From a virus (Duplodnaviria; Caudoviricetes): a stretch of DNA of 51,305 nt. The notes beneath the pieces are model-generated. The model was not told where the DNA came from and did not search any database. It was given only the letters and a program-made list of their open reading frames with translations. Positions 11,789-42,575 of the stretch are shown one piece after another. A program made the position numbers and the translations under genes. How positions within the stretch are numbered: the first letter of the stretch is position 1; each line of letters begins with the position of its first letter. Location of the stretch: positions 1-51,305 of the IMG/VR virus record IMGVR_UViG_3300032274_000005. One strand, given 5' to 3'.

Positions 11789-13482
11789 TGCACACCCTTA
11801 CGCCCACCCGTGATGAGTGTGCCAGGGCCGTGGATCGGGTCTACCTGCTGGACCTGACCATCGACAAGACGTACAGACTCAGCACCCGGCCCATCACCAT
11901 CACGGACACAGATGGTGTGGTCAGGCAGTACACAGGGGGCATCCTAAACGAGCCTGCCCCCGTCACGTCCACCAACCGTGATGGGGTGTCTGACGAGTCC
12001 CCACGGGCTCCGATGGAGATATCAATCCAGGGTGTGGACGTGGCCACCCTGATTGGTGGCAAGGTCAGACTGCAAGAGGCCCGTGGCTCACTGTGGGAGG
12101 TCTTCGTCGACAGCAACGGGGATGCGATCCAGTCGTGGCGCCGCCGGATCGCCCACATCGTGGACGGCATTGTCAAGAGCCCACAGTACGACTCGGCTGA
12201 CTCCGCTGTGTCAGTCATGCAGTTCACCCTTGAGGGGAAGCCCTTTGATGCGGCCGGGGCCTTTCTCAGCGAAGACGCGATCATTGATCTGGACTCGTGG
12301 CCCGACTCTGAAGACCTCGGCTCAGAGGGCTCCCCGTACCCGAGGGTCGTGGGCTTCCCCGGCTCGTTCGTTCGGAGTGATGGGGACAGTGGCACCACCT
12401 CGGGGAGCCCGGCCTACCCGGTCACCGACCACGCAGGCCACCCTGAAGAGTTCCTGATCTGTGATGGGTGGTGTGGGGCCACACAGGTGAGCGTTGCCGC
12501 TGTGGGTGTGGGCACGTCCGCCTTCACCCTCTCAGGGGGCACGCTCTACCCAACCAGGGACGGCCGGGGACGGCTTGTCACAGTCATCAATGCTCACTCA
12601 GAGTCCACCGCATGGCAGGAGGCAGCAGAGCACTATGTCATCTGGGACAAAGACCACGGTGGGGGCACCCTCAACCCGTTCGGCCTCGGCTGGCTGGAGG
12701 GTCTTGGGGACGTGTGCCTCTACCTGCTGCAACAGTCCCCGGCTGCCTACAACCTCTCAGCGTGGATGGCCGAACGTGCGCAGCTCAACCGATACAAAGT
12801 CTCCACGTTTTGGAACGATCAAGAGGAGACGATTCGAGAGGTCTTAGAAGGGCTGCTTGAGGACTTCCCTGAGGTGGGTGTCCGCAGGGATGCCAACGGG
12901 CTCCGACCGGTCCTGAGACGTGCGGACTACGCTGACAGCGAGGCAGCCGGGTACATCTACGCTCGGACCACACGGAACGGCAAGACGAAGCGCTGCCCAG
13001 ACTTCCACCCGCTGGAGGATAGCAAGTGGACGGATGCGCGTGACGATGACGAGCTGGTCAACAAGATCACCGTCAAGTTTGCCCGACGTGTTCGCACCGA
13101 CCGATACCGGCGCAAGATCACCGTGTCCGGCACCACTGCCTCACTCGGGGAGACACAGACGGCCAGCCAGTACAGCCGGGACGCACTCACACGGGCAGGT
13201 GAGGACAGGACAGCCACACGAGAGGCGCTGAACGTATACGATGACGTGACAGCCGGTCTGGTTGCCCTTGAGGGTGTCCGGTACACTGGATTCAACTACC
13301 GCACCCGGCAGTATTTCGCGGCCTATCGGTGGGGCTGGCTGGAGGTCAATGAGGTGTACCTGCTCACCGATGACGTGTATGTGGATGTTCAGGTCGAGGT
13401 CATCAGCAAGGAGCCCACGCTCGGCGGGTACGTGGTCACGCTGGCCTTGGATGATGACCCGGTGAGGCTGGCTGCAAAGTAA
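11788..13482 (+). CDS. Tail hub/baseplate protein
   Basis: About 564 aa; TGATG-coupled; 'LVNKITVKFA' and terminal OB-like strands typical of tail hub proteins. Confidence 0.6.
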   Translation: MHTLTPTRDECARAVDRVYLLDLTIDKTYRLSTRPITITDTDGVVRQYTGGILNEPAPVTSTNRDGVSDESPRAPMEISIQGVDVATLIGGKVRLQEARGSLWEVFVDSNGDAIQSWRRRIAHIVDGIVKSPQYDSADSAVSVMQFTLEGKPFDAAGAFLSEDAIIDLDSWPDSEDLGSEGSPYPRVVGFPGSFVRSDGDSGTTSGSPAYPVTDHAGHPEEFLICDGWCGATQVSVAAVGVGTSAFTLSGGTLYPTRDGRGRLVTVINAHSESTAWQEAAEHYVIWDKDHGGGTLNPFGLGWLEGLGDVCLYLLQQSPAAYNLSAWMAERAQLNRYKVSTFWNDQEETIREVLEGLLEDFPEVGVRRDANGLRPVLRRADYADSEAAGYIYARTTRNGKTKRCPDFHPLEDSKWTDARDDDELVNKITVKFARRVRTDRYRRKITVSGTTASLGETQTASQYSRDALTRAGEDRTATREALNVYDDVTAGLVALEGVRYTGFNYRTRQYFAAYRWGWLEVNEVYLLTDDVYVDVQVEVISKEPTLGGYVVTLALDDDPVRLAAK

Positions 13483-13509
13483 AACGCCCCACCGTTACGG
13501 GTGAGGCGT
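13477..13509 (-). terminator. Intrinsic terminator on the minus strand
   Basis: Minus strand ACGCCTCACC-loop-GGTGGGGCGT followed by TTTACTTT. Confidence 0.6.
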
Positions 13510-13882
13510 GGGCCGGTCGGACATAGCCGAGCGCGGGGGGTGCTCTCTTGTAACACCTCAAGCGGAAACCCCCACCCGGTGAGGGGTGAGGGCTCTTGGC
13601 CCCGAGGTCATCTCTGAGGGGTTCTCAGATCAGGTCCACGGGGCACAGGTACGTAGTAATATCTGTATACCACGATCGGCCCAACGGACGTGGTATACCT
13701 TGAGCGTAGGCTGTTGCTGGCCTGCCCCATCAATCCAAGAACGAACAGCAGGCCGGGTGAACGATCCCCGGCCTGCACTCGTTCGGGGATGGCCCTAAAG
13801 AGGACGGCCACAGAGACAACCCCTGTGACCGATCGGCTTGACGCGTCACCCCCGCTCAGTGCAAACGGAAATCACAACCGAT
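13480..13882 (-). ncRNA. Putative ~400-nt structured non-coding RNA (family not recognised)
   Basis: No credible ORF; extended -10 TGcTATGAT at 13888-13896 (minus); terminator at the 3' end; multiple long stems and 5'/3' end pairing. Confidence 0.45.
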
Positions 13883-13887
13883 GTCCC

Positions 13888-13932
13888 ATCATAGCAAAGT
13901 CAAGCCCTTGACGCGGCAAGACGTGATATTAT
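13888..13932. promoter_or_regulatory. Divergent extended -10 promoters with a central GTCAAG-cc-CTTGAC inverted repeat
   Basis: TGcTATGAT (minus, 13888-13896), TGaTATTAT (plus, 13924-13932), inverted repeat at 13899-13912. Confidence 0.5.
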
Positions 13933-13958
13933 CGGTCTAAACCTACGAGGGACGGCAA

Positions 13959-14252
13959 ATGGCAGTATCCAAGACGGTCACCGAGCCCACCGAGGGGAGC
14001 GCCGGCACCCTTACAGCCACGGCCTCAGCCAACAGCATCACGGTGAGCAACTGCCGGTTTCTGTTTGCCTACATCGATGACGCCACCAACGACGGCACCT
14101 TCGGCCGGGACTCCGCAGATCAGGCCCCCCTGCCCAAGCAGACATGGGTTGAGGTGTGGCGCCGGACGGACATGGGCAGTGAGGGCACCATCACCATGTT
14201 CTTTGCCAGCACATCCGGCACCCCCACCCTGTACTTTCGAGCTGCGCAGTGA
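13959..14252 (+). CDS. Small beta-rich virion-type protein
   Basis: 97 aa, GAGGG RBS, T/S/A-rich. Confidence 0.55.
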   Translation: MAVSKTVTEPTEGSAGTLTATASANSITVSNCRFLFAYIDDATNDGTFGRDSADQAPLPKQTWVEVWRRTDMGSEGTITMFFASTSGTPTLYFRAAQ

Positions 14253-14977
14253 ATGGCATGTACGGCATGGCTGGACAGTCATCGGCGGGGGGAGGGGTAG
14301 ACCTCTCGGCCGTCCCCTTGGATGCCATTGACGCAACCACCGGCTGGACTGCTGCCGACCCTGACTCCATCGTGTCATCCCTGACCATCACCGATGGCGT
14401 CCACAAGGCCACGATGGCAGCCGTCGCAGGCGGCAACGATGACTACTCGCTGGTCAGTGGATCGGCGTTCGATGCCCAGCGGGCCTACATCAACCTCAAC
14501 GATGCCTCTGGCGCCCGCATCACGACGGAGGATGACTGTATCGTCTACCTCCGCCTCTCGTATGAGACGCCCGACACGGCGTTTGATCAGCAGGTGTCAT
14601 TGCTCGTCTGTGAGGCCCCGGCCTCCCAGGTGGCTGCCGATGTCAACGGCGTGGGTGTCCAGATCCAGAGGCAGTCAGGGACCACCCGATGGGCCATCGT
14701 CAACAACACCTCTGCCACCATCGACACCTCGGGGTCAAACAAGTACGTCACGTCGGTGATCTTCATTAAGGGAGGCGCGTTTGCCGATCTCGCTGCCATC
14801 ACCGTGGACGCATCTGAGAACGGCGTGGGCACCCCGAGCCGAGCAGTCACCACCCCCACAGCATCCACCAACCTCTCTCTGATGTTGAGCGTGGGCGTGC
14901 ATGGCACGGCTGCTGTGTCCTCGGGTGCTGATTGCCAGTTTAAGGCGTGGTACAAGGTCGTAAAATTCACCGTCTGA
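14249..14977 (+). CDS. Putative virion/receptor-binding protein
   Basis: 242 aa, beta-sandwich-like composition; GTGA overlap. Confidence 0.5.
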   Translation: MNGMYGMAGQSSAGGGVDLSAVPLDAIDATTGWTAADPDSIVSSLTITDGVHKATMAAVAGGNDDYSLVSGSAFDAQRAYINLNDASGARITTEDDCIVYLRLSYETPDTAFDQQVSLLVCEAPASQVAADVNGVGVQIQRQSGTTRWAIVNNTSATIDTSGSNKYVTSVIFIKGGAFADLAAITVDASENGVGTPSRAVTTPTASTNLSLMLSVGVHGTAAVSSGADCQFKAWYKVVKFTV

Positions 14978-14985
14978 GGTCACCT

Positions 14986-15618
14986 GTGAAAGAGCATCTG
15001 TTTATCGCGAGCGTCGACCACGCAGGCAGACCCAGCAAGGGGTTTGAGGATCGGGGGGCTGCGTTCGATCTCGACTTTGACGGCATCCCCGATGTGTCTG
15101 AGGTCAGGGTCAACCGGTACGTGTCTACCCGCATGGATGAGCACTTCCTCAACCATGCGGGTGAGGTGGACTTCGTGACCATGACCGATGGTGAGTACAG
15201 TGAGCGCCACAAGCGGGCCAACCGGTATGGGGCTGATGCCTACCTCGCATTGCACGTCAACAGCCACCGACGCACCGACATCAACCAGGGCTTGTTCTTT
15301 TACGACCACCGGACCTCACCGGGCAACGGTGATGCCCTTGCCAAGGCTCTTGCGGACGAGTGGCGGAAAGAGGCTGCCAAGCTCGGGGTGGCCGGGTTCG
15401 ATGTCCGAGCCCTCCCCACGACCCTCCCGACGTGGCGGAACCCCCACTACACGATCAAGGGGCTCAAGCGGCCCGTTGGCATCTGCTGTGAGCCCTGGTT
15501 TCTCAGCAACCCTGAGCACGTCGAGTTGTTCGCCACACAGGCCGGGTACGAAGCCCTCGCAACCGCCCTGTGTCGTGGCCTGCTCTCGTGGGCACGTGGA
15601 CGCCGACAGGTAGCCTGA
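14986..15618 (+). CDS. Endolysin, N-acetylmuramoyl-L-alanine amidase (Amidase_3)
   Basis: Zn ligands VDHAG, SE..VN, LALHVNS and catalytic CEPWFLSN; 'RANRYGAD'; GTG start after GAGGT. Confidence 0.8.
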   Translation: MKEHLFIASVDHAGRPSKGFEDRGAAFDLDFDGIPDVSEVRVNRYVSTRMDEHFLNHAGEVDFVTMTDGEYSERHKRANRYGADAYLALHVNSHRRTDINQGLFFYDHRTSPGNGDALAKALADEWRKEAAKLGVAGFDVRALPTTLPTWRNPHYTIKGLKRPVGICCEPWFLSNPEHVELFATQAGYEALATALCRGLLSWARGRRQVA

Positions 15619-15677: not shown

Positions 15678-16385
15678 ATGACATTCAACAAGAGCAAGGC
15701 CCTCGACCTGTGGGACCACCACAAGGCATCCATTCTTCCCACCATCTCTGATGGTGTCCTCAAGGCCATCCCCGCCGCTCAGATCGTTGAGCTTGTGCTC
15801 AAGGAGCTGATGGAGGCCCTGATCAAAGAGTCTCCCCGTGCCTGGGCATGGATGCTCCAGCGTGTGGCCCGTGCCTCTGCTCGCCTGGATGAGCGGCTGA
15901 CATGGAACGGCGTTCGTGAGGGTCGGTTCAAGGACTGGCTTGAGGACAATGACGACCTCTACACCCACCTTATCGGGGGCCTTGCTGCTCTCTCGGAGGC
16001 GGTTGAGCTGGAGATCGACGCGGAAACCGGAGCCCAGATCCTCAGTCTGTTTGACTCCCCGGTCAAGCTGGGTCGGGCTCTTGACTTCCGCGCTGTGGAG
16101 CGCCCGCAGAGCACCGACCTCGTGACCACGGATGGCGTGTCCAAAGACGACCTGATTGCCAGCCTTGCCAATGAGAAAGCCGAGCTTGCCAGCCGGGTTG
16201 ACTCTCTCACCGAAGAAGTCTCCACGCTGCGTGCCCTCATCCAATCCGGCGCCGCTGATGCCGTACTCACCCCGGCACCCAAGCCGGTCATCCCCTCCGA
16301 GCCCGTTCCCACGGTGACTGCTCCCCCGGCCGGTGGGGTCACCCGTCGCCGCGCTGGCACCTCCCGACCCGTGGGCAGCCGATGA
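15678..16385 (+). CDS. Hypothetical protein with coiled coil and Pro-rich tail
   Basis: ATG after GAGG; about 235 aa. Confidence 0.6.
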   Translation: MTFNKSKALDLWDHHKASILPTISDGVLKAIPAAQIVELVLKELMEALIKESPRAWAWMLQRVARASARLDERLTWNGVREGRFKDWLEDNDDLYTHLIGGLAALSEAVELEIDAETGAQILSLFDSPVKLGRALDFRAVERPQSTDLVTTDGVSKDDLIASLANEKAELASRVDSLTEEVSTLRALIQSGAADAVLTPAPKPVIPSEPVPTVTAPPAGGVTRRRAGTSRPVGSR

Positions 16386-17002
16386 CCATCCTCCTGCTCT
16401 TGCTGCTGAGTGCAGCCCGTGCCGAGCCCGAACCGGTGGACTGCTCTGCGATCCCGCTGCCGGTGGAGTGCGTGGAGGGTGCCACGGTCACAGTCGATCC
16501 GTCGCTGCTGGAGGGTGGTGCCGATCCCCTCGTCCACCCTGACATCGACCCCGAGCCCACCCCTGCCGGTGAAGGTCGACGCCTCTACCATCCGGGCGTC
16601 GACCTCATGTACGCCCTGATGTGGTGGGCCAATGCCGGTGAGAGGATGGCAGCCACTACCATAGGGATCGCTGGCATCGTGGGCAGCATCCTCAGCGTTC
16701 CCCTCAACTGGCTGGCCGTTCACGTCGGCCTCCGTCTCCGTCGCCTGCGTGGTCGAGAAGAGGACCACGAGCCTGTCAAGGTCACGGCTCGGGAGGCATC
16801 AGAGGGCAGCGCTCAGGTTGCACTGCTGCGTGAATCGGTCACGAGACTCAAGGCGAAAGAGGAGAAGTTGGAGCAGGCGAACAACCTGCTCAAGTCGCAG
16901 CTTCACATCCTCCGAGGCCACCACATCGACTCTCTCACCGAGAATCAGGCAGCCCGTGCCGCAGCCCTCAAGGCGGCTGGTCACTCGGTAGACCTGCTGT
17001 GA
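16382..17002 (+). CDS. Single-pass membrane protein (signal peptide, TM, coiled coil) in the lysis operon
   Basis: MTILLLLLLSAARA signal; TM IGIAGIVGSILSVPLNWLAVHVGL; RLRRLRGR; coiled coil. Confidence 0.6.
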   Translation: MTILLLLLLSAARAEPEPVDCSAIPLPVECVEGATVTVDPSLLEGGADPLVHPDIDPEPTPAGEGRRLYHPGVDLMYALMWWANAGERMAATTIGIAGIVGSILSVPLNWLAVHVGLRLRRLRGREEDHEPVKVTAREASEGSAQVALLRESVTRLKAKEEKLEQANNLLKSQLHILRGHHIDSLTENQAARAAALKAAGHSVDLL

Positions 17003-17499
17003 CTGTCTCAGATGAGACACGTGGGGTTCTGGAGGGGTACGCCCAACGCAAGAGCCTGGAAGACCTTGAGGCTGCTGTGTTCGGCGCCACCCACGCCCCC
17101 TACTACAGCCACAACGGCACCACGAGGGGTGACACCCCGGCCGCTACCATCCCCCTGTTTCGTCGGGTGCTCACCCAACGTCTGAGGATGGAGCGTGTTG
17201 AGTGGGGGCCTGCTGCTGCCCTGCGTGGCCTTGCTCGCCAGCCGTGGCGGGCTCTCAGCCCCCGAGAGGCAGAGATGGTGGAGCAGGGTGAGGCTGTGAG
17301 GCTGCCGGGCTCTGAGAGCCTGCTACCGGTTGAGCCTCCCCCGGTGGAGCACCCTCTCATGCCCAGGCGTAAAAAGGCCCGGTATGCCGGGGGTGAGGTC
17401 GCTGTGTCCAAGCTGATGCAGGCGTACCTGGGGACGGCCCGCATCCTCCGTATGCTCAGGACCGGGCACAAGACCCAGGCCGGTCGGTTACGGTCATAG
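16999..17499 (+). CDS. Hypothetical protein
   Basis: 166-aa coupled ORF, last gene of the operon. Confidence 0.55.
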   Translation: MTVSDETRGVLEGYAQRKSLEDLEAAVFGATHAPYYSHNGTTRGDTPAATIPLFRRVLTQRLRMERVEWGPAAALRGLARQPWRALSPREAEMVEQGEAVRLPGSESLLPVEPPPVEHPLMPRRKKARYAGGEVAVSKLMQAYLGTARILRMLRTGHKTQAGRLRS

Positions 17500-17525: not shown

Positions 17526-17551
17526 CCCTCACCCCTCACCGGGTGGGGGTT
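17526..17551 (+). terminator. Hairpin/terminator at the convergence of two operons; inverted copy of 13567-13592
   Basis: CCCTCACCC-CTCACC-GGGTGGGGG-TT. Confidence 0.5.
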
Positions 17552-23198: not shown

Positions 23199-23836
23199 AA
23201 CGAGGCAAATGGGGCAAGCAGTGGGAGGCCATCATCACGTCTCAGAACGTGATCTATGAGCGCACCGATCAAGCCTATGTCTACAAACAACACCCCGAGG
23301 TGCTTGTAACCAAGCAGGTGGGGGCATCGTTCCAAGGTCGATGGTCAGGCAAGGGCCAGCCCGACTACGCGGGGCTCTTTGATGGCCTCTTCTTCGGGAT
23401 GGAGGCCAAGAGCACGCAGAGCGGCAAGCTCACATGGGCAGCTCTCCGAGGCCATCAGGCGTACCAACTGGATCAGATCGTCAGGCATCACGGGGTAGCC
23501 TTCGTGGCTGTGCTTGACGCACCCAACCACATGGGCCTCTTGATCCCGTGGGCTCGCATCCGACAGGCATGGTTTGCAGATCGGGTCCATTGGGAGGGTG
23601 AGCGCGTCAAGCCGGCAGCGTCTCGGACACGGGCGCCGAACGGCTCGGCGTCCATGTCGGTCCAAGACCTCCGAGCCCGTGCCATCTGGACACACTACGC
23701 AGCCCCACAGGTGGGGTGGGACTACCTGCCCGCGCTCAGGGGCTATGCCAACTCGGTGGAGGCGTCCGCAGACCACCGGCTCACCGTGGACAACCCGGCA
23801 CCGTTCTACGTGCCTGAGCAGAGGAGAGACAGGTGA
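23195..23836 (+). CDS. recU: Holliday junction resolvase, RecU family
   Basis: G..WE..I...N..Y, PDYAG..DG.FFGMEAKST and HQ..QL...GVAF PD-(D/E)xK motifs. Confidence 0.8.
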   Translation: MKRGKWGKQWEAIITSQNVIYERTDQAYVYKQHPEVLVTKQVGASFQGRWSGKGQPDYAGLFDGLFFGMEAKSTQSGKLTWAALRGHQAYQLDQIVRHHGVAFVAVLDAPNHMGLLIPWARIRQAWFADRVHWEGERVKPAASRTRAPNGSASMSVQDLRARAIWTHYAAPQVGWDYLPALRGYANSVEASADHRLTVDNPAPFYVPEQRRDR

Positions 23837-24330
23837 CCCCATTCAAAAGGGACCGACTGTGGCGGGCTCTGAGGCACCATGACGCTGGGTTTGTGGCCAA
23901 GATCCTCAGCGACTACCCCAATGCGCTCTTGCTGGGCTGCGTGATGGCTGTTGCCTCGTATCCAACGGCGCCGAACATCACGGCGTCTCGACTGGCCTAC
24001 GTTGCCTCCACCCTCAGCCCAGAGGACCACCCCGGCACCCTGCGTGCCCTCCACAGTCAGGGCACGTCACACTATGCCCTCAACAACTACCGCACCACGC
24101 TGGCATCACAGGCCCTCCCCTATGCTCGGGGTGAGCTGGCTGTCTCGGATGCCCGGCTCCACTATCTGGCCCAGGTGGCTGGCCTCCGTCCTGACCTGGG
24201 CCTGCGCTCTGACCGCCTCGACCCCGAGGTGGTGAGCACGGAAGCCATCGGGACGCTCACAGGGGAGGCGGACGTGTCACAGTGGCTCCGAGGCCGCTAC
24301 CGCCTGGACTGGCAGGCTGCGCAGCCCTGA
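23833..24330 (+). CDS. Hypothetical protein
   Basis: GTGA-coupled 165-aa ORF. Confidence 0.55.
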   Translation: MTPFKRDRLWRALRHHDAGFVAKILSDYPNALLLGCVMAVASYPTAPNITASRLAYVASTLSPEDHPGTLRALHSQGTSHYALNNYRTTLASQALPYARGELAVSDARLHYLAQVAGLRPDLGLRSDRLDPEVVSTEAIGTLTGEADVSQWLRGRYRLDWQAAQP

Positions 24331-24352: not shown

Positions 24353-24384
24353 AAGAGGCCAGCCCCATCCGGCTGGCCTCTTTG
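24353..24384. terminator. Bidirectional intrinsic terminator
   Basis: AAGAGGCCAGCC-N6-GGCTGGCCTCTT between convergent genes. Confidence 0.6.
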
Positions 24385-24394
24385 CTGTGGTGCC

Positions 24395-24575
24395 TCAGAA
24401 CAATGACTGAGGCGTAAACGCCTGCCTGCCACGACCCTCAAGGAACGCCCCCCACTGATCAGCCATAGCAGCAGCCACCCCGGCGTAGGTGAGGCTCCTG
24501 AGCTTGGCTCTGTCCTCAGAGGGGGGCAGTTTGTGGATGCGCTGCTCTCGGCCCTCCACAATGTGTGTGGGGTTG
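24395..24575 (-). pseudogene. C-terminal remnant of a phage DNA cytosine methyltransferase-like gene
   Basis: PTHIVEGREQRIHKLPPSEDRAKLRSLTYAGVAAAMADQWG matches the C-terminus of the short phage C5-MTase family; the N-terminal ACE/PPC/ENP motifs are absent. Confidence 0.65.
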
Positions 24576-24606
24576 TGGCCGGGTACGTCCCGGCCGGGTT
24601 GCTCTC

Positions 24607-24903
24607 TCAGTGCCGGCACTGCCACGTGTCAGAGGGCAGGCCATCATCCTCCAGCGTGGCCCACACCTCACCGTTGGAGTCAATCCACGCATCCTCACCG
24701 TCAAGATTCGCCACGGTGAGGATGTCCCAGAATGACGAGGCCACGATCATGGAGCCATCCTCGAAGACATAGACCGTGGTGTCTCCCTTCACGTACCGGT
24801 AGTCGGCCGCCTCCACGAGGGTGGCAAACTCCACCCCCTCAGCCGTCTCCCAGTTCCCTCCGTCTTCCCCGAGTGCCTTGCTGATGTCCTGTGCAATCGT
24901 CAT
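24607..24903 (-). CDS. Hypothetical acidic protein
   Basis: GGAGG RBS; downstream of the promoter at 25042-25070. Confidence 0.6.
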   Translation of the reverse strand: MTIAQDISKALGEDGGNWETAEGVEFATLVEAADYRYVKGDTTVYVFEDGSMIVASSFWDILTVANLDGEDAWIDSNGEVWATLEDDGLPSDTWQCRH

Positions 24904-26982: not shown

Positions 26983-27243
26983 GTGTCAGCAGACGGCGCC
27001 CGCATCACACGGGCAATTACAATCATAAAGGCCCTCCTGACTGCCCCCGAGGCGGTCACAGTGTCCCAACTCTCTGAGGAGTCGGGCATCTCGAAGCGGC
27101 AAATCTCCCGAGACATTGCCGCGATCAACAAAGGGGGGCTGGTTGAGATCACCGGGCTGGTTGGCCCCGGTGGAGGCGTCTACATCGGAGACGAGTCAAG
27201 GCAGGCCCTTGTTGGCCTGTGTCACCCAGCACTTGAGGAGTGA
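26983..27243 (+). CDS. Stand-alone winged-HTH of the YafY/PafB/WYL-regulator type (no WYL domain)
   Basis: R...II..L....VTVSQLSEE.GIS.RQI.RDI..I...G......GPGGG; AGGAG RBS. Confidence 0.7.
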   Translation: MSADGARITRAITIIKALLTAPEAVTVSQLSEESGISKRQISRDIAAINKGGLVEITGLVGPGGGVYIGDESRQALVGLCHPALEE

Positions 27244-27321
27244 TTCACAACTCTCGACAACGCCTAAAACCAAGAGCCCGGCGCCATCCACCGACGCCGG
27301 GCCACATGACTGGAGTATCGC

Positions 27322-27585
27322 ATGACCGACAATAGCACGCCCCCCGTGGTCATCCACGGCGTTCATCACCTCAAGTCCCCCCACGATTGGAGGGCTGTGC
27401 CTGACATCATCAGCGACCACAGCGCGGCCCTTGAGGGCCACAGCAGCGTGACTGTCTACACGGTCAACCTGCCCGAGCCCCACACCCTGCGCATCACCAC
27501 CCATCGTGGCAAGCGGGATCTGATCCTGCGTATCGAGCGCACCCCTGGACTGGCCTACACCCACGGTGGGGAGGTGGTGAAGTGA
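27322..27585 (+). CDS. Hypothetical protein
   Basis: GGAG RBS. Confidence 0.5.
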   Translation: MTDNSTPPVVIHGVHHLKSPHDWRAVPDIISDHSAALEGHSSVTVYTVNLPEPHTLRITTHRGKRDLILRIERTPGLAYTHGGEVVK

Positions 27586-42297: not shown

Positions 42298-42575
42298 CCT
42301 GCCAGAAGTCCACCTACACATCCAAGAGGCTGGCCCGAATCGCCCTCCGCACCATCAGCAAGCTCAAGGCAGGCATGAGGGTATACAAGTGCCCCCATTG
42401 CTCTGGCTGGCACCTCACGTCCTCTCAGAAGGCCGTCCCCCCATCACAGTCCAGGCACAAGCCCAGAATCACCATCAACGGCACACGCAGCAGACACTCC
42501 GCACGCACACGTGAAGAGGCGGAGGCACTGGCTCGGATGCTCAGGGCACGCCATCACCCACCCTCAGAGGAGTAG
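42294..42575 (+). CDS. Small Zn-binding phage protein (YxCxxCxGWHLT)
   Basis: C.K..Y.SK..A...RVYKCPHCSGWHLT. Confidence 0.65.
   Translation: MTCQKSTYTSKRLARIALRTISKLKAGMRVYKCPHCSGWHLTSSQKAVPPSQSRHKPRITINGTRSRHSARTREEAEALARMLRARHHPPSEE

What the first reader, a model, noticed from the sequence alone, without database searches (positions are those of the whole stretch)
13480..13896. Candidate ~400-nt structured phage ncRNA with its own promoter and terminator
Seen: the largest intergenic gap has no credible ORF. It has a minus-strand extended -10 (TGcTATGAT, 13888-13896) and a minus-strand intrinsic terminator (13477-13509). It also has perfect 10-bp stems (13665-74/13689-98; 13748-57/13767-76, extended by GAACGA/TCGTTC), further hairpins (13569-92, ~13599-13644, ~13790-13827) and long-range end pairing (13529-42 with 13847-57). 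Several mismatches become G-U pairs on the minus strand. It lacks tmRNA, RNase P, SRP and tRNA hallmarks. Inference: an undescribed large phage RNA (scaffold, decoy/anti-defence or regulator), conceptually like other large ornate phage RNAs.
Basis: partly seen in the sequence, partly recalled or inferred. Interest (0 to 1): 0.75.

Follow-up and report, generated by a model that had tools for sequence, protein, structure and literature searches.

The report
Leftward non-coding RNA cassette in phage
A 416-base, gene-free insert between the tail and lysis genes of an uncultured phage looks like a backward-facing unit with its own promoter and terminators that makes hairpin-rich small RNAs, but it is not shown to be one large ornate RNA.

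Summary
Window 13483-13958 has no coding signal and folds far better than shuffles (z -5.1 minus strand, -4.75 plus). Thirty other 420-nt windows of this genome average z -0.26.

Three lines point to the minus strand:
- The three terminator-type hairpins are 2.6-8.3 kcal/mol more stable there, with 6 G·U pairs against 0.
- The 24-nt core of hairpin 13567-13592 recurs exactly in 5 other viral contigs and 1 Streptomyces contig, always just after a gene in the sense direction. In the gap it points left.
- Two of the genome's three TGNTAWNAT motifs lie back to back at 13888-13896(-) and 13924-13932(+).

Distant relatives have only 7-74 nt at this junction, so about 13483-13898 is a lineage-specific insert.

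One natural variant (run X4) keeps hairpin 13599-13644 through two double-sided compensatory changes. It also lacks 13483-13566, which holds one arm of the proposed long-range closing helix.

Best reading, about 0.55: a reverse-oriented "non-coding moron" giving nested RNAs of roughly 85, 320 and 405 nt. It has no Rfam family and no homologue beyond the variant, and no RNA data were available. The single ornate 400-nt RNA is not supported. Another first-stage note on this same window flagged the 26-nt repeat; nothing was found on other DNA.

The parts
13888..13896 (-). Predicted leftward promoter: extended -10 TGCTATGAT. The inferred start is near 13881.
   Evidence: one of only 3 TGNTAWNAT matches on both strands of the 51-kb genome; the looser TGNTANNNT occurs 11 times against 23.2 +/- 4.4 in shuffles, so it is depleted. 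It is unchanged in the X4 variant. The start site is inferred, not shown.
13924..13932 (+). Predicted rightward promoter (extended -10 TGATATTAT) of the 97-aa gene operon. This is the ancestral neighbour, not part of the insert.
   Evidence: it aligns with the CAAGAC..TG..TAT core that follows the tail-gene stop codon in distant relatives (invariant TG and TAT columns in 8 of 8 rows).
13899..13922 (.). Overlapping palindromes between the two divergent -10 boxes (GTCAAG-CC-CTTGAC and CTTGACGCGGCAAG). Possible operator.
   Evidence: I20, I4, D5; motif found only here and at 13837-13848. No change in X4 between 13885 and 13989. Function is inferred.
13832..13881 (-). Predicted 5' leader of the leftward RNA. 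It contains the palindrome TGACGCGTCA (13839-13848).
   Evidence: D5. The X4 change 13844 C>T breaks the palindrome.
13805..13831 (-). Terminator-type hairpin T1 (12 pairs, 2 G·U), followed by TCCTCTTT.
   Evidence: -17.6 kcal/mol on the minus strand against -9.3 on the plus strand. No change in X4.
13733..13790 (-). Large hairpin with the perfect 10-bp stem 13748-57/13767-76 and the outer GAACGA/TCGTTC stem.
   Evidence: I11, I13.: -37.7 (minus) and -37.2 (plus), so it is strand-neutral. No change in X4.
13665..13698 (-). Hairpin with a perfect 10-bp stem GTATACCACG/CGTGGTATAC.
   Evidence: I12; strand-neutral. The only X4 change, 13677, lies in the loop region.
13645..13664 (-). Variable unpaired linker.
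   Evidence: 6 substitutions in X4 (13645-13660). It is unpaired in the minus-strand folds.
13599..13644 (-). Hairpin kept by compensatory change. The apical CTGAG..CTCAG stem-loop is conserved and the lower stem is rewritten.
   Evidence: 13603/13640 goes C-G to T-A and 13606/13637 goes G-C to T-A. The middle of the stem is rebuilt. The variant hairpin is more stable than the reference on both strands (-28.5 against -25.2 minus; -31.4 against -27.9 plus).
13564..13595 (-). Terminator-type hairpin T2. Its 26-nt core 13567-13592 is identical to 17526-17551 on the plus strand.
   Evidence: 2 matches, 0 expected.: -20.8 on the minus strand against -15.3 on the plus; the 24-nt core is exact in 6 outside loci, always in sense just 3' of a gene. 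In X4 the deletion puts TTTTACTTT directly behind it (one search read).
13483..13566 (-). 84-nt module present in the window and absent from the X4 variant. It holds terminator T3 and one arm of the proposed closing helix.
   Evidence: table 5: one contig of 1350 nt (depth 14.7) skips 13483-13566. Contigs of runs X3, X9 and X10 carry the long form. It is flanked by a 26-nt direct repeat, 73% alike (D1).
13484..13509 (-). Terminator T3 (10 pairs, 1 G·U), followed by TTTTAC. It abuts the stop codon of the tail gene.
   Evidence: -17.7 on the minus strand against -15.1 on the plus.
17526..17551 (+). Twin of hairpin T2. Here it is in sense orientation, 27 nt after the end of the rightward lysis-side operon (stop at 17499).
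   Evidence: -20.4 on the plus strand against -16.6 on the minus.

Best explanation
Window ~13483-13898 is a lineage-specific insert that works as an independent, leftward, non-coding transcription unit. It is a 'non-coding moron' set between the tail-gene stop codon and the ancestral promoter of the next operon.

Proposed mechanism:
1. Host RNA polymerase starts at an extended -10 promoter (13896-13888). This promoter lies back to back with the rightward promoter of the 97-aa gene operon.
2. Polymerase transcribes a string of local hairpins.
3. It stops at up to three intrinsic terminators: 13831-13805, 13592-13567 and 13509-13484.
4. The products share a 5' end and are roughly 85, 320 and, in this variant, 405 nt long.

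The conserved core 13599-13795 is the likely working part. I infer that the RNA acts in one of two ways. It may act in trans on host or phage targets. Or, being fully complementary to any late-operon read-through transcript, it may act as a cis-antisense RNA that uncouples tail-gene and lysis-side expression.

Shown here: the absence of coding signal, the excess structure, the leftward orientation of the terminators, the insert boundaries and the structure-preserving variation.
Inferred: that the promoter fires, the transcript ends, and any function of the RNA.
For: 1. Non-coding. The gap has no GC3 periodicity, while the flanking genes have GC3 0.75-0.81. 0 of 8 gap ORFs are called proteins in the collection. 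In the X4 variant the 70-aa plus-strand ORF loses its stop, and nearly all its changes alter the residue. The 73-aa ORF has 3 of 4 changes non-synonymous.

2. Structure. z -5.12, with 0 of 100 shuffles as good. This is lower than all 30 background windows.

3. Strand.
- T3, T2 and T1 score -17.7/-15.1, -20.8/-15.3 and -17.6/-9.3 kcal/mol (minus/plus), with 6 G·U pairs on the minus strand and 0 on the plus.
- The scan tool finds 4 terminator-like rows in 12500-15000 against 1.1 +/- 1.1 expected. Three of them are on the minus strand in the gap and represent 2 distinct hairpins.
- Two of the 5 hairpins with 10 or more pairs plus a T tail in the whole genome lie in the gap.
- The 24-nt core of T2 is exact in 5 IMG/VR contigs and 1 Streptomyces contig. 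In 6 of 6 it sits just after a gene in sense with a T-rich tail. These are about 2 independent contexts, because 5 of the 6 share the same gene pair, dNMP kinase then repressor c. The phage's own copy at 17526 follows the rightward operon in sense.

4. Promoter. 2 of the 3 TGNTAWNAT matches in the genome are the divergent pair at 13888-96(-) and 13924-32(+). The looser motif is depleted genome-wide, 11 against 23.2 +/- 4.4.

5. Insert. The six relatives' loci that show the downstream gene (27-33% protein identity) have 7-74 nt between the same two genes. In three more loci the next start is visible about 55-80 nt downstream. These short gaps align with window 13899-13961.

6. Selection on structure.
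- In X4, the pairs 13603/13640 and 13606/13637 change on both sides and stay paired.
- There are no changes in the four strong stems.
- The X4 sequence folds to -160.5 on the minus strand. 0 of 250 random variants with the same 19 substitutions and 2 indels reach that (mean -142.4, sd 6.3). On the plus strand 3.2% of 250 do.
- 13796 and 13802 turn a U-A and a C-G pair into G·U pairs on the minus strand. They would be A·C mismatches on the plus strand (reference fold read).
Against: - No transcript data. No RNA run is listed for this DNA, so neither the promoter nor the 3' ends are shown.
- The host is unknown. The sigma-70 scan with both hexamers finds no promoter here, and there is no good -35 box.
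- The tail of T2 in the window's form (TTTCCGCTT) failed the scan tool's T-run rule.
- If T1 is efficient, little RNA would reach the conserved core.
- The three central hairpins are perfect Watson-Crick palindromes, equally stable on both strands. They could act as DNA sites or in a plus-strand RNA, and the two compensatory pairs are strand-neutral.
- The gap diverges faster than the flanks. X4 has 21 substitutions and 2 indels in 392 nt, against 5 in 483 and 5 in 283 in the coding flanks.
- The comparative evidence is one assembled contig from one run. The 16 changes in 13603-13660 may be a single recombination patch rather than independent events.
- No homologue was found in 401 sampled Actinomycetota genomes, in GenBank phages or in IMG/VR by hairpin patterns.
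Confidence: 0.55

Rival explanations
1. Insulator plus operator region with no working RNA. The leftward terminators only stop antisense transcription from reaching the structural genes. That transcription could be read-through of the leftward operon at 21.7-17.5 kb, or come from spurious promoters in the lysis region. The palindromes are protein-binding sites that control the rightward promoter at 13924-13932.
For: - The twin hairpin at 17526-17551 is weaker in the leftward direction (-16.6 against -20.4). Leftward read-through of the 21.7-17.5 kb operon into the lysis region is therefore conceivable.
- The central hairpins are perfect, strand-neutral DNA palindromes.
- The palindromes lie between the divergent -10 boxes.
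- Antisense-oriented terminators are reported in other phages: 9% of mapped terminators in six Pseudomonas phages (PMC10914365, passages read).
- Another minus-oriented 12-pair hairpin lies between plus-strand genes at 27275-27303.
Against: - Stopping antisense transcription needs a terminator, not about 400 nt with three further hairpins, one of which is kept by compensatory change.
- An extended -10 box points into the unit at its upstream edge.
- The distant relatives manage without any such block.
Confidence: 0.2
2. A plus-strand mRNA element. The hairpins belong to the late polycistronic transcript, as a 3' stabiliser or terminator of the tail operon, or as processing sites between the tail and lysis-side messages.
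For: - All flanking genes are on the plus strand.
- The plus strand also folds far better than shuffles, z -4.75.
- The compensatory pairs are strand-neutral.
- The X4 variant keeps plus-strand stability better than 96.8% of 250 random variants.
Against: - On the plus strand the three terminator-type hairpins carry A·C mismatches instead of G·U pairs and lose 2.6-8.3 kcal/mol.
- On the plus strand their T runs become A runs placed before the stem.
- The shared 24-nt hairpin is used in the opposite orientation wherever its gene context is clear, 6 of 6 outside loci plus 17526.
- The changes at 13796 and 13802 would break plus-strand pairs.
Confidence: 0.1
3. A decaying remnant of inserted DNA (a mobile element or recombination scar) with no present function.
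For: - The block is absent from distant relatives.
- It is flanked by a 10-nt direct repeat, 9 of 10 alike, at 13474-83 and 13894-903 (D9).
- It varies by an 84-nt indel and evolves faster than the flanks.
- It has no homologue anywhere searched.
Against: - The variation preserves structure: 0 of 250 random variants are as stable on the minus strand, and two pairs changed on both sides.
- The 135 nt at 13661-13795 carry a single change.
- I saw no terminal inverted repeats just inside the direct repeats when reading the two ends, and none of the 20 inverted pairs joins those ends.
- No transposase, integrase or reverse transcriptase was found.
Confidence: 0.08
4. A small protein: the 39-aa minus-strand ORF 13849-13730 (GTG start) is the real product of the leftward unit.
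For: - All 3 X4 changes inside it (13844, 13802, 13796) fall on third codon positions and are synonymous.
- Its GC3 is 0.72.
- It lies downstream of the predicted leftward promoter.
Against: - Three of three in one of six frames is weak support after multiple testing, and two of the three changes are equally explained as G·U-preserving.
- GC1 and GC2 are atypical: 0.54 and 0.62, against about 0.6 and 0.5 in the genes.
- There is no well-spaced ribosome-binding site (sequence read).
- The ORF runs through terminator T1.
- It is not a called protein.
- It has 0 hits among 1.84 billion representatives, although a 39-residue query has little power.
Confidence: 0.04

Closest known systems
Non-coding RNAs from the ~500-bp ORF-free region downstream of Pleft in Cluster A mycobacteriophages (L5, D29, StarStuff). 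Source: PMC5712189; I read passages and section 11.
   Same: Both are actinophage-type regions of about 400-500 bp without a credible ORF. Each is transcribed, or here predicted to be transcribed, from one promoter to a terminator region. Each gives, or here is predicted to give, nested species of about 100-500 nt with a common 5' end. Sequence diverges faster than in the neighbouring genes, and the function is unknown.
   Different: There the RNAs were shown by RNA-seq and Northern blots, are very abundant and are toxic to the host. They lie at the genome's right end, ahead of the early genes and in the same direction. Here nothing is shown at the RNA level, and the unit lies between tail and lysis-side genes, opposite to both. 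There is no sequence similarity to any GenBank phage record. This is a working analogy, not membership.
Morons: independent promoter-to-terminator units inserted between phage genes. Source: PMC3594210, abstract seen in a search listing only.
   Same: The block is inserted between two genes that are adjacent in relatives. It has its own predicted promoter and terminators, and its orientation is independent of the flanking operon.
   Different: Classical morons carry a protein gene and are mostly described in temperate phages. This cargo is non-coding, and I found no integrase of either family.
Phage-encoded antisense or intergenic RNAs and antisense-oriented terminators mapped by ONT-cappable-seq in Pseudomonas phages. 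Source: PMC10914365, passages read.
   Same: Both involve transcription units or terminators opposite to the coding strand of a phage whose genes mostly lie on one strand.
   Different: Those were mapped experimentally, mostly overlap genes, and come from unrelated phages and hosts.
Large ornate RNAs of Rfam (GOLLD, ROOL, HEARO, OLE and the like; names recalled, not returned by any search).
   Different: No Rfam family reaches its gathering score. The proposed closing helix is dispensable in a natural variant. The architecture is a chain of local hairpins and terminators rather than a multi-junction fold.

Membership tests
Any Rfam 15 family (including large phage-associated RNAs, RNase P, SRP, tmRNA, riboswitches, group I/II introns) | Covariance-model score at or above the family's gathering score | tested here: not met
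   0 matches in the whole window; only Guanidine-II (16.7 against 32 bits), sX13 (15 against 50) and sR20 (12.7 against 44), with E 0.68-9.8.
tRNA / tmRNA | Cloverleaf or tag-peptide architecture found by ARAGORN | tested here: not met
   0 genes in the window.
Intrinsic (factor-independent) terminator | G+C-rich stem, short loop, T-rich tail on the transcribed strand | tested here: met
   13831-13805 and 13509-13484 on the minus strand. T2 (13592-13567) fails the tool's T-run rule in this form but is identical to a hairpin used in sense after genes elsewhere. Termination itself was not assayed.
Moron (independent inserted transcription unit) | Inserted between genes that are adjacent in relatives | tested here: met
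   relatives have 7-74 nt at this junction, and that stretch aligns with window 13899-13961.
Moron (independent inserted transcription unit) | Own promoter and own terminator | tested here: inconclusive
   The terminators are met. The promoter is only a motif match. The two-hexamer scan finds none, and no activity data exist.
Moron (independent inserted transcription unit) | Carries a protein-coding cargo gene | tested here: not met
   no coding signal, ORFs not conserved or not called, and no relatives of the 39-aa ORF.
Cluster A mycobacteriophage Pleft non-coding RNA | Sequence similarity to, and position in, L5/D29-type genomes | tested here: not met
   blastn (distant mode) of 13400-14000 against 50,697 phage records gave no match. 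The position and orientation also differ.
Retron msr-msd RNA | Adjacent reverse transcriptase gene | tested here: not met
   no RVT_1 match in the 51-kb record.
TnpB/IscB guide (omega) RNA | Adjacent TnpB or IscB gene | tested here: not met
   only a 12.8-bit zinc-ribbon match below the cut-off, at 42303-42404, about 28 kb away.
Group I intron | Interrupts a gene; conserved catalytic core | tested here: not met
   The tail gene ends with the same C-terminus as its relatives (invariant D563-K572). The next gene starts with its own ribosome-binding site. There is no Rfam intron match.
attP site | Phage integrase in the genome | tested here: not met
   neither a tyrosine (PF00589) nor a serine (PF00239) recombinase match.
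MITE or other small mobile element | Terminal inverted repeats plus target-site duplication | tested here: inconclusive
   A 10-nt direct repeat, 9 of 10 alike, flanks the block (D9). I saw no terminal inverted repeats when reading the two ends, and no pair joins them. No other copy exists in the genome apart from the 26-nt hairpin.

The most novel reading that the evidence does not exclude
The insert is a horizontally acquired, reverse-oriented RNA cassette. Its structured core (13599-13795) is a trans-acting host-takeover, decoy or anti-defence RNA of a family not yet described. It would be the functional counterpart of the toxic Pleft RNAs of mycobacteriophages, and modular, with terminator modules gained and lost as in the X4 variant.
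Probability: 0.15. Interest if true: 0.65.

Novelty: new member of a known kind. Interest (0 to 1): 0.4.

Why it matters
Phage non-coding RNAs are known, but few have been characterised and almost none outside model hosts. Here sequence evidence alone fixes the strand, the borders and the modular build of a candidate RNA unit in a phage with almost no annotated genes. The evidence consists of terminator orientation, a terminator shared with unrelated phages, promoter-motif depletion, comparison with relatives and one natural variant.

If the RNA is made, it would be a clean example of a moron whose cargo is RNA rather than protein. The same orientation and variant tests could be applied to other 'empty' gaps in metagenomic phage genomes. 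If it is only an insulator or a scar, the finding is ordinary.

Tried and rejected
Homologues
- blastn of 13400-14000 against GenBank phages: no match.
- tblastn of the 572-aa neighbour against the same collection: no match.
- The search for related loci in IMG/VR with the 572-aa and 242-aa neighbours and with alignment A1: no relative.
- The search for related loci in genome contigs with A1: none.
- The search for related loci in metagenome contigs with A1: 10 loci, all only 27-33% identical and without the insert.
- Five closer relatives of the tail protein exist (P0002-P0006, 77-34% identity). P0004 and P0005 fit the scan patterns but were not returned.

Hairpin patterns in IMG/VR
- GTATACCACG..CGTGGTATAC: 0 hits.
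- T1 pattern: 0 hits.
- T3 pattern: 0 hits.
- GCAGGCCGGG..CCCGGCCTGC: 16 loci, but with no flank similarity to the gap. I rejected them as generic G+C-rich hairpins.

Other searches
- DNA search of 401 Actinomycetota genomes: only the 24-nt hairpin in G001.
- Expression: no RNA holder is listed for this DNA. This says nothing either way.
- Runs X3, X9 and X10 cover only parts of the stretch, with no differences, so they add no comparative information beyond carrying the long form.
- Targets: 13-mer matches between the gap and the rest of the genome give only the 26-nt hairpin and three overlapping chance-level words (null mean 1.1). No antisense target was found within the phage.
- Replication origin: no GC-skew turn at 13-14 kb.
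- The phage is nearly unannotatable. 0 PHROG hits for 8 of 9 neighbours and few Pfam hits. The terminase is 23-24% identical to Arthrobacter and Pseudomonas phage terminases. The host stays unknown. The shared terminator and a sub-threshold Rv2743c-family hit only hint at an actinomycete.
- Earlier notes of this scan: only notes on this same window.
- No supplementary files of papers were opened. Tables S3-S5 of PMC10914365 may list antisense terminators relevant to the insulator rival.


Full report
SETTING

The window is a complete 51,305-bp viral record with direct terminal repeats. Its G+C content is 62%. DNA runs labelled microbial-mat and estuary metagenomes hold it. Almost nothing in it is annotatable.
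- 8 of 9 neighbouring proteins have no PHROG match.
- Pfam recognises an Amidase_3 lysin at 14947-15618, a sub-threshold Rv2743c-family protein, a DnaB-type helicase and a large terminase.
- The terminase is 23-24% identical to those of Arthrobacter and Pseudomonas phages.
- No integrase of either family is present.

Genes around the finding all lie on the plus strand. A 1165-aa and a 572-aa protein end at 13482. These are probably tail proteins, judged only by size and position. Then come a 97-aa gene (13959-14252), a 242-aa gene, the amidase and three more genes ending at 17499. A leftward block runs from about 21.7 kb down to about 17.5 kb.

THE OBSERVATION

The gap 13483-13958 lacks the GC3 periodicity of the flanking genes. 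None of 8 ORFs in it is a called protein in the 15-billion-protein collection, whereas the 97-aa neighbour is. Rfam gives nothing at gathering score, and in the gap only three matches with E between 0.68 and 9.8. ARAGORN finds nothing.

Folding energy is far beyond chance on both strands.
- Minus strand: -204 kcal/mol, z -5.12.
- Plus strand: -189.8 kcal/mol, z -4.75.
- 0 of 100 shuffles are as good on either strand.
- Thirty other 420-nt windows of the same genome, folded on the minus strand, give mean z -0.26, sd 1.23 and minimum -3.91. My own shuffles give the gap -6.1.

WHICH STRAND

Three of the hairpins are of terminator type, and they are strongly asymmetric.

| Hairpin | Minus strand (kcal/mol) | Plus strand (kcal/mol) | G·U pairs on minus |
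|---|---|---|---|
| 13484-13509 | -17.7 | -15.1 | 1 |
| 13564-13595 | -20.8 | -15.3 | 3 |
| 13805-13831 | -17.6 | -9.3 | 2 |

None of the three has a G·U pair on the plus strand. The first and third are followed by T-rich tails on the minus strand, and the scan tool flags them.

The 26-nt core of the middle hairpin is identical to 17526-17551 on the plus strand. That copy starts 27 nt after the stop codon that ends the rightward operon.

The 24-nt core also occurs exactly in five other IMG/VR contigs and in one Streptomyces polyasparticus contig. These share nothing else with the window. In all 6 the hairpin lies just 3' of a gene, in that gene's sense direction, followed by a T-rich tail. Five of the six share one context, a dNMP kinase gene followed by a 'Streptomyces phage repressor protein c' gene. 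The independent contexts are therefore about two, plus the window's own copy at 17.5 kb. In every case the orientation that gives a U·G wobble, not an A·C mismatch, is the transcribed one. In the gap that orientation points left.

The three central hairpins (13599-13644, 13665-13698, 13733-13790) are equally stable on both strands and say nothing about strand.

PROMOTER

TGCTATGAT (13896-13888, minus strand) and TGATATTAT (13924-13932, plus strand) are two of only three matches to TGNTAWNAT on both strands of the genome. They lie back to back with 27 nt between them, in a stretch of overlapping palindromes.

The looser extended -10 pattern TGNTANNNT is depleted in the genome: 11 matches against 23.2 +/- 4.4, and all 100 shuffles have at least 11. 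That is what one expects if the host polymerase reads the motif and the phage avoids stray copies.

These are motif arguments only. The two-hexamer sigma-70 scan finds no promoter here, and the host is unknown.

THE BLOCK IS AN INSERT

Ten metagenome loci encode 27-33% identical relatives of the 572-aa protein. In the six loci where the next gene is visible, the spacer is 7-74 nt. In three more the next start is visible about 55-80 nt downstream.

These short spacers align with window 13899-13961. They share a CAAGAC..TG..TAT core, with the TG and TAT columns invariant in 8 of 8 rows, and a GAGG-type ribosome-binding site. The rightward promoter is therefore ancestral. About 13483-13898 has been added in this lineage: exactly the leftward -10 box, the hairpins and the terminators. 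A 10-nt direct repeat, 9 of 10 alike, lies at 13474-83 and 13894-903 (D9). I found no terminal inverted repeats.

A NATURAL VARIANT

Contigs of run X4, from a different study, cover 13000-14241 in one 1350-nt record of depth 14.7. Three things stand out.

1. It lacks 13483-13566. The deletion places hairpin T2 directly against the tail-gene stop, so that TTTTACTTT now follows it. Contigs of X3, X9 and X10 carry the long form.

2. Changes are unevenly spread.

| Region | Length | Changes in X4 |
|---|---|---|
| 13603-13660 | 58 nt | 16 substitutions, 2 indels |
| 13661-13795 | 135 nt | 1 substitution |
| 13885-13989 | 105 nt | none |
| Coding flank 13000-13482 | 483 nt | 5 |
| Coding flank 13959-14241 | 283 nt | 5 |

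3. The changes preserve structure. In hairpin 13599-13644 the pairs 13603/13640 (C-G to T-A) and 13606/13637 (G-C to T-A) change on both sides. The middle of the stem is rebuilt and the apical stem-loop is untouched. The variant hairpin is more stable than the reference on both strands.

The other changes fit the same picture.
- Six substitutions fall in a linker that is unpaired in the minus-strand fold.
- None falls in the four strong stems.
- 13796 and 13802 convert a U-A and a C-G pair of a small 5-bp hairpin into G·U pairs on the minus strand. They would be A·C mismatches on the plus strand (one search read).

Folded whole (13567-13896), the variant reaches -160.5 kcal/mol on the minus strand. 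None of 250 random variants with the same 19 substitutions and 2 indels does as well (mean -142.4, sd 6.3). On the plus strand 3.2% of 250 do.

Caveats on the variant:
- It is one assembled contig.
- The dense patch may be a single recombination event.
- Compensatory Watson-Crick changes do not tell the strand.

CODING RIVALS

In X4 the 70-aa plus-strand ORF loses its stop, and nearly all its changes alter the residue. The 73-aa ORF has 3 of 4 non-synonymous changes. The 67-aa minus-strand ORF is heavily altered.

Only the 39-aa minus-strand ORF 13849-13730 has 3 of 3 synonymous changes. That is one of six frames, and two of the changes are also explained by G·U preservation. Its base composition by codon position is atypical. 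It is not a called protein, and it has no relative among 1.84 billion representatives, although a 39-residue query has low power.

WHAT IT MOST LIKELY IS

The best-supported reading is a leftward, promoter-to-terminator, non-coding unit inserted between the tail-gene stop and the ancestral promoter of the next operon. With a start near 13881 (inferred), the three terminators would give RNAs of about 85, 320 and 405 nt with a common 5' end. The X4 form would lack the longest.

The best-conserved and covarying part, 13599-13795, lies beyond the first terminator. That implies leaky termination at T1, if this part works as minus-strand RNA.

The function is not shown. I favour one of two roles. 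The first is a trans-acting regulatory or host-directed RNA. The second rests on the RNA being complementary to any late-operon read-through across the gap: a cis-antisense RNA that separates tail-gene from lysis-side expression. No antisense target elsewhere in the phage was found.

The single 'ornate' 400-nt fold is not supported. Its closing helix is dispensable, and the architecture is a chain of local hairpins.

The rivals are given with their evidence in the Rival explanations section: an insulator plus operator region, a plus-strand mRNA element, an inert insertion scar, and a 39-aa peptide.

COMPARISON WITH WHAT IS KNOWN

The closest working analogue is the ~500-bp ORF-free region downstream of Pleft in Cluster A mycobacteriophages. 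It yields a ~500-nt primary transcript and 100-400-nt species with a common 5' end. These are abundant, stable, toxic to the host and of unknown function (PMC5712189; passages and section 11 read). There is no sequence similarity, and the position and orientation differ, so this is an analogy and not membership.

The build matches the definition of a moron, except that the cargo is not a protein gene (PMC3594210; abstract seen in a search listing). Antisense-oriented terminators and antisense RNAs are documented in Pseudomonas phages (PMC10914365; passages read).

Retron, TnpB-guide, group I intron, attP and Rfam memberships were tested and not met.

VERDICT

The feature is real, is more than chance, and its strand and borders are now fixed by several independent lines of sequence evidence. 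As an RNA it remains a prediction without expression data, and with comparative support from one variant only. It is a new, orphan member of a known kind (phage intergenic non-coding RNA unit, or moron), not a new kind of system. Interest 0.4.

Noticed in passing
window 13569-13592 (-), 17526-17551 (+); L013-L018: A 24-nt terminator hairpin is shared exactly with unrelated viral contigs and a Streptomyces polyasparticus contig. In 5 of the 6 outside loci it lies between a dNMP kinase gene and a 'Streptomyces phage repressor protein c' gene. This hints at an actinomycete host, or at horizontal spread of terminator modules between phages.
   Followed up: partly
window 13474-13483 and 13894-13903: A 10-nt direct repeat (GCAAAGT[A/C]AA, 9 of 10 alike) flanks the inserted block. 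It resembles a target-site duplication or a microhomology scar. I saw no terminal inverted repeats.
   Followed up: partly
whole window: The extended -10 pattern TGNTANNNT is depleted: 11 matches against 23.2 +/- 4.4 in shuffles. This is as if stray promoters were selected against. Several of the 11 lie just upstream of genes (13924, 29942, 38713).
   Followed up: no
window 13599-13660: In the X4 variant this 58-nt patch is about 30% diverged, while the flanks differ by 1-2%. That suggests recombination with a more distant carrier of the same hairpin.
   Followed up: partly
window 27275-27303 (-): Another 12-pair hairpin with a T-rich tail on the minus strand lies between two plus-strand genes (26983-27243 and 27322-27585).
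   Followed up: no
window 24353-24382: A 12-pair hairpin lies between convergent genes (23833-24330 on the plus strand, 24395-24625 on the minus strand). It is probably a two-way terminator. The 420-nt window starting at 24300 had the second-lowest fold z-score in the genome (-3.91).
   Followed up: no
L003, L004, L007, L008, L010 (spacer after the 550-aa gene): Marine relatives share a conserved spacer of about 70 nt (ACTGTTT..TGTCAAGAC..TGGGGTATGGT..GAGGGG..ATG). It looks like a promoter plus ribosome-binding site for the next gene.
   Followed up: partly
window 16382-17002 (+): The 206-aa protein downstream of the amidase has a just-sub-threshold match to the Rv2743c family (27.0 against 27.7 bits). 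This is another weak pointer to Actinobacteria.
   Followed up: no
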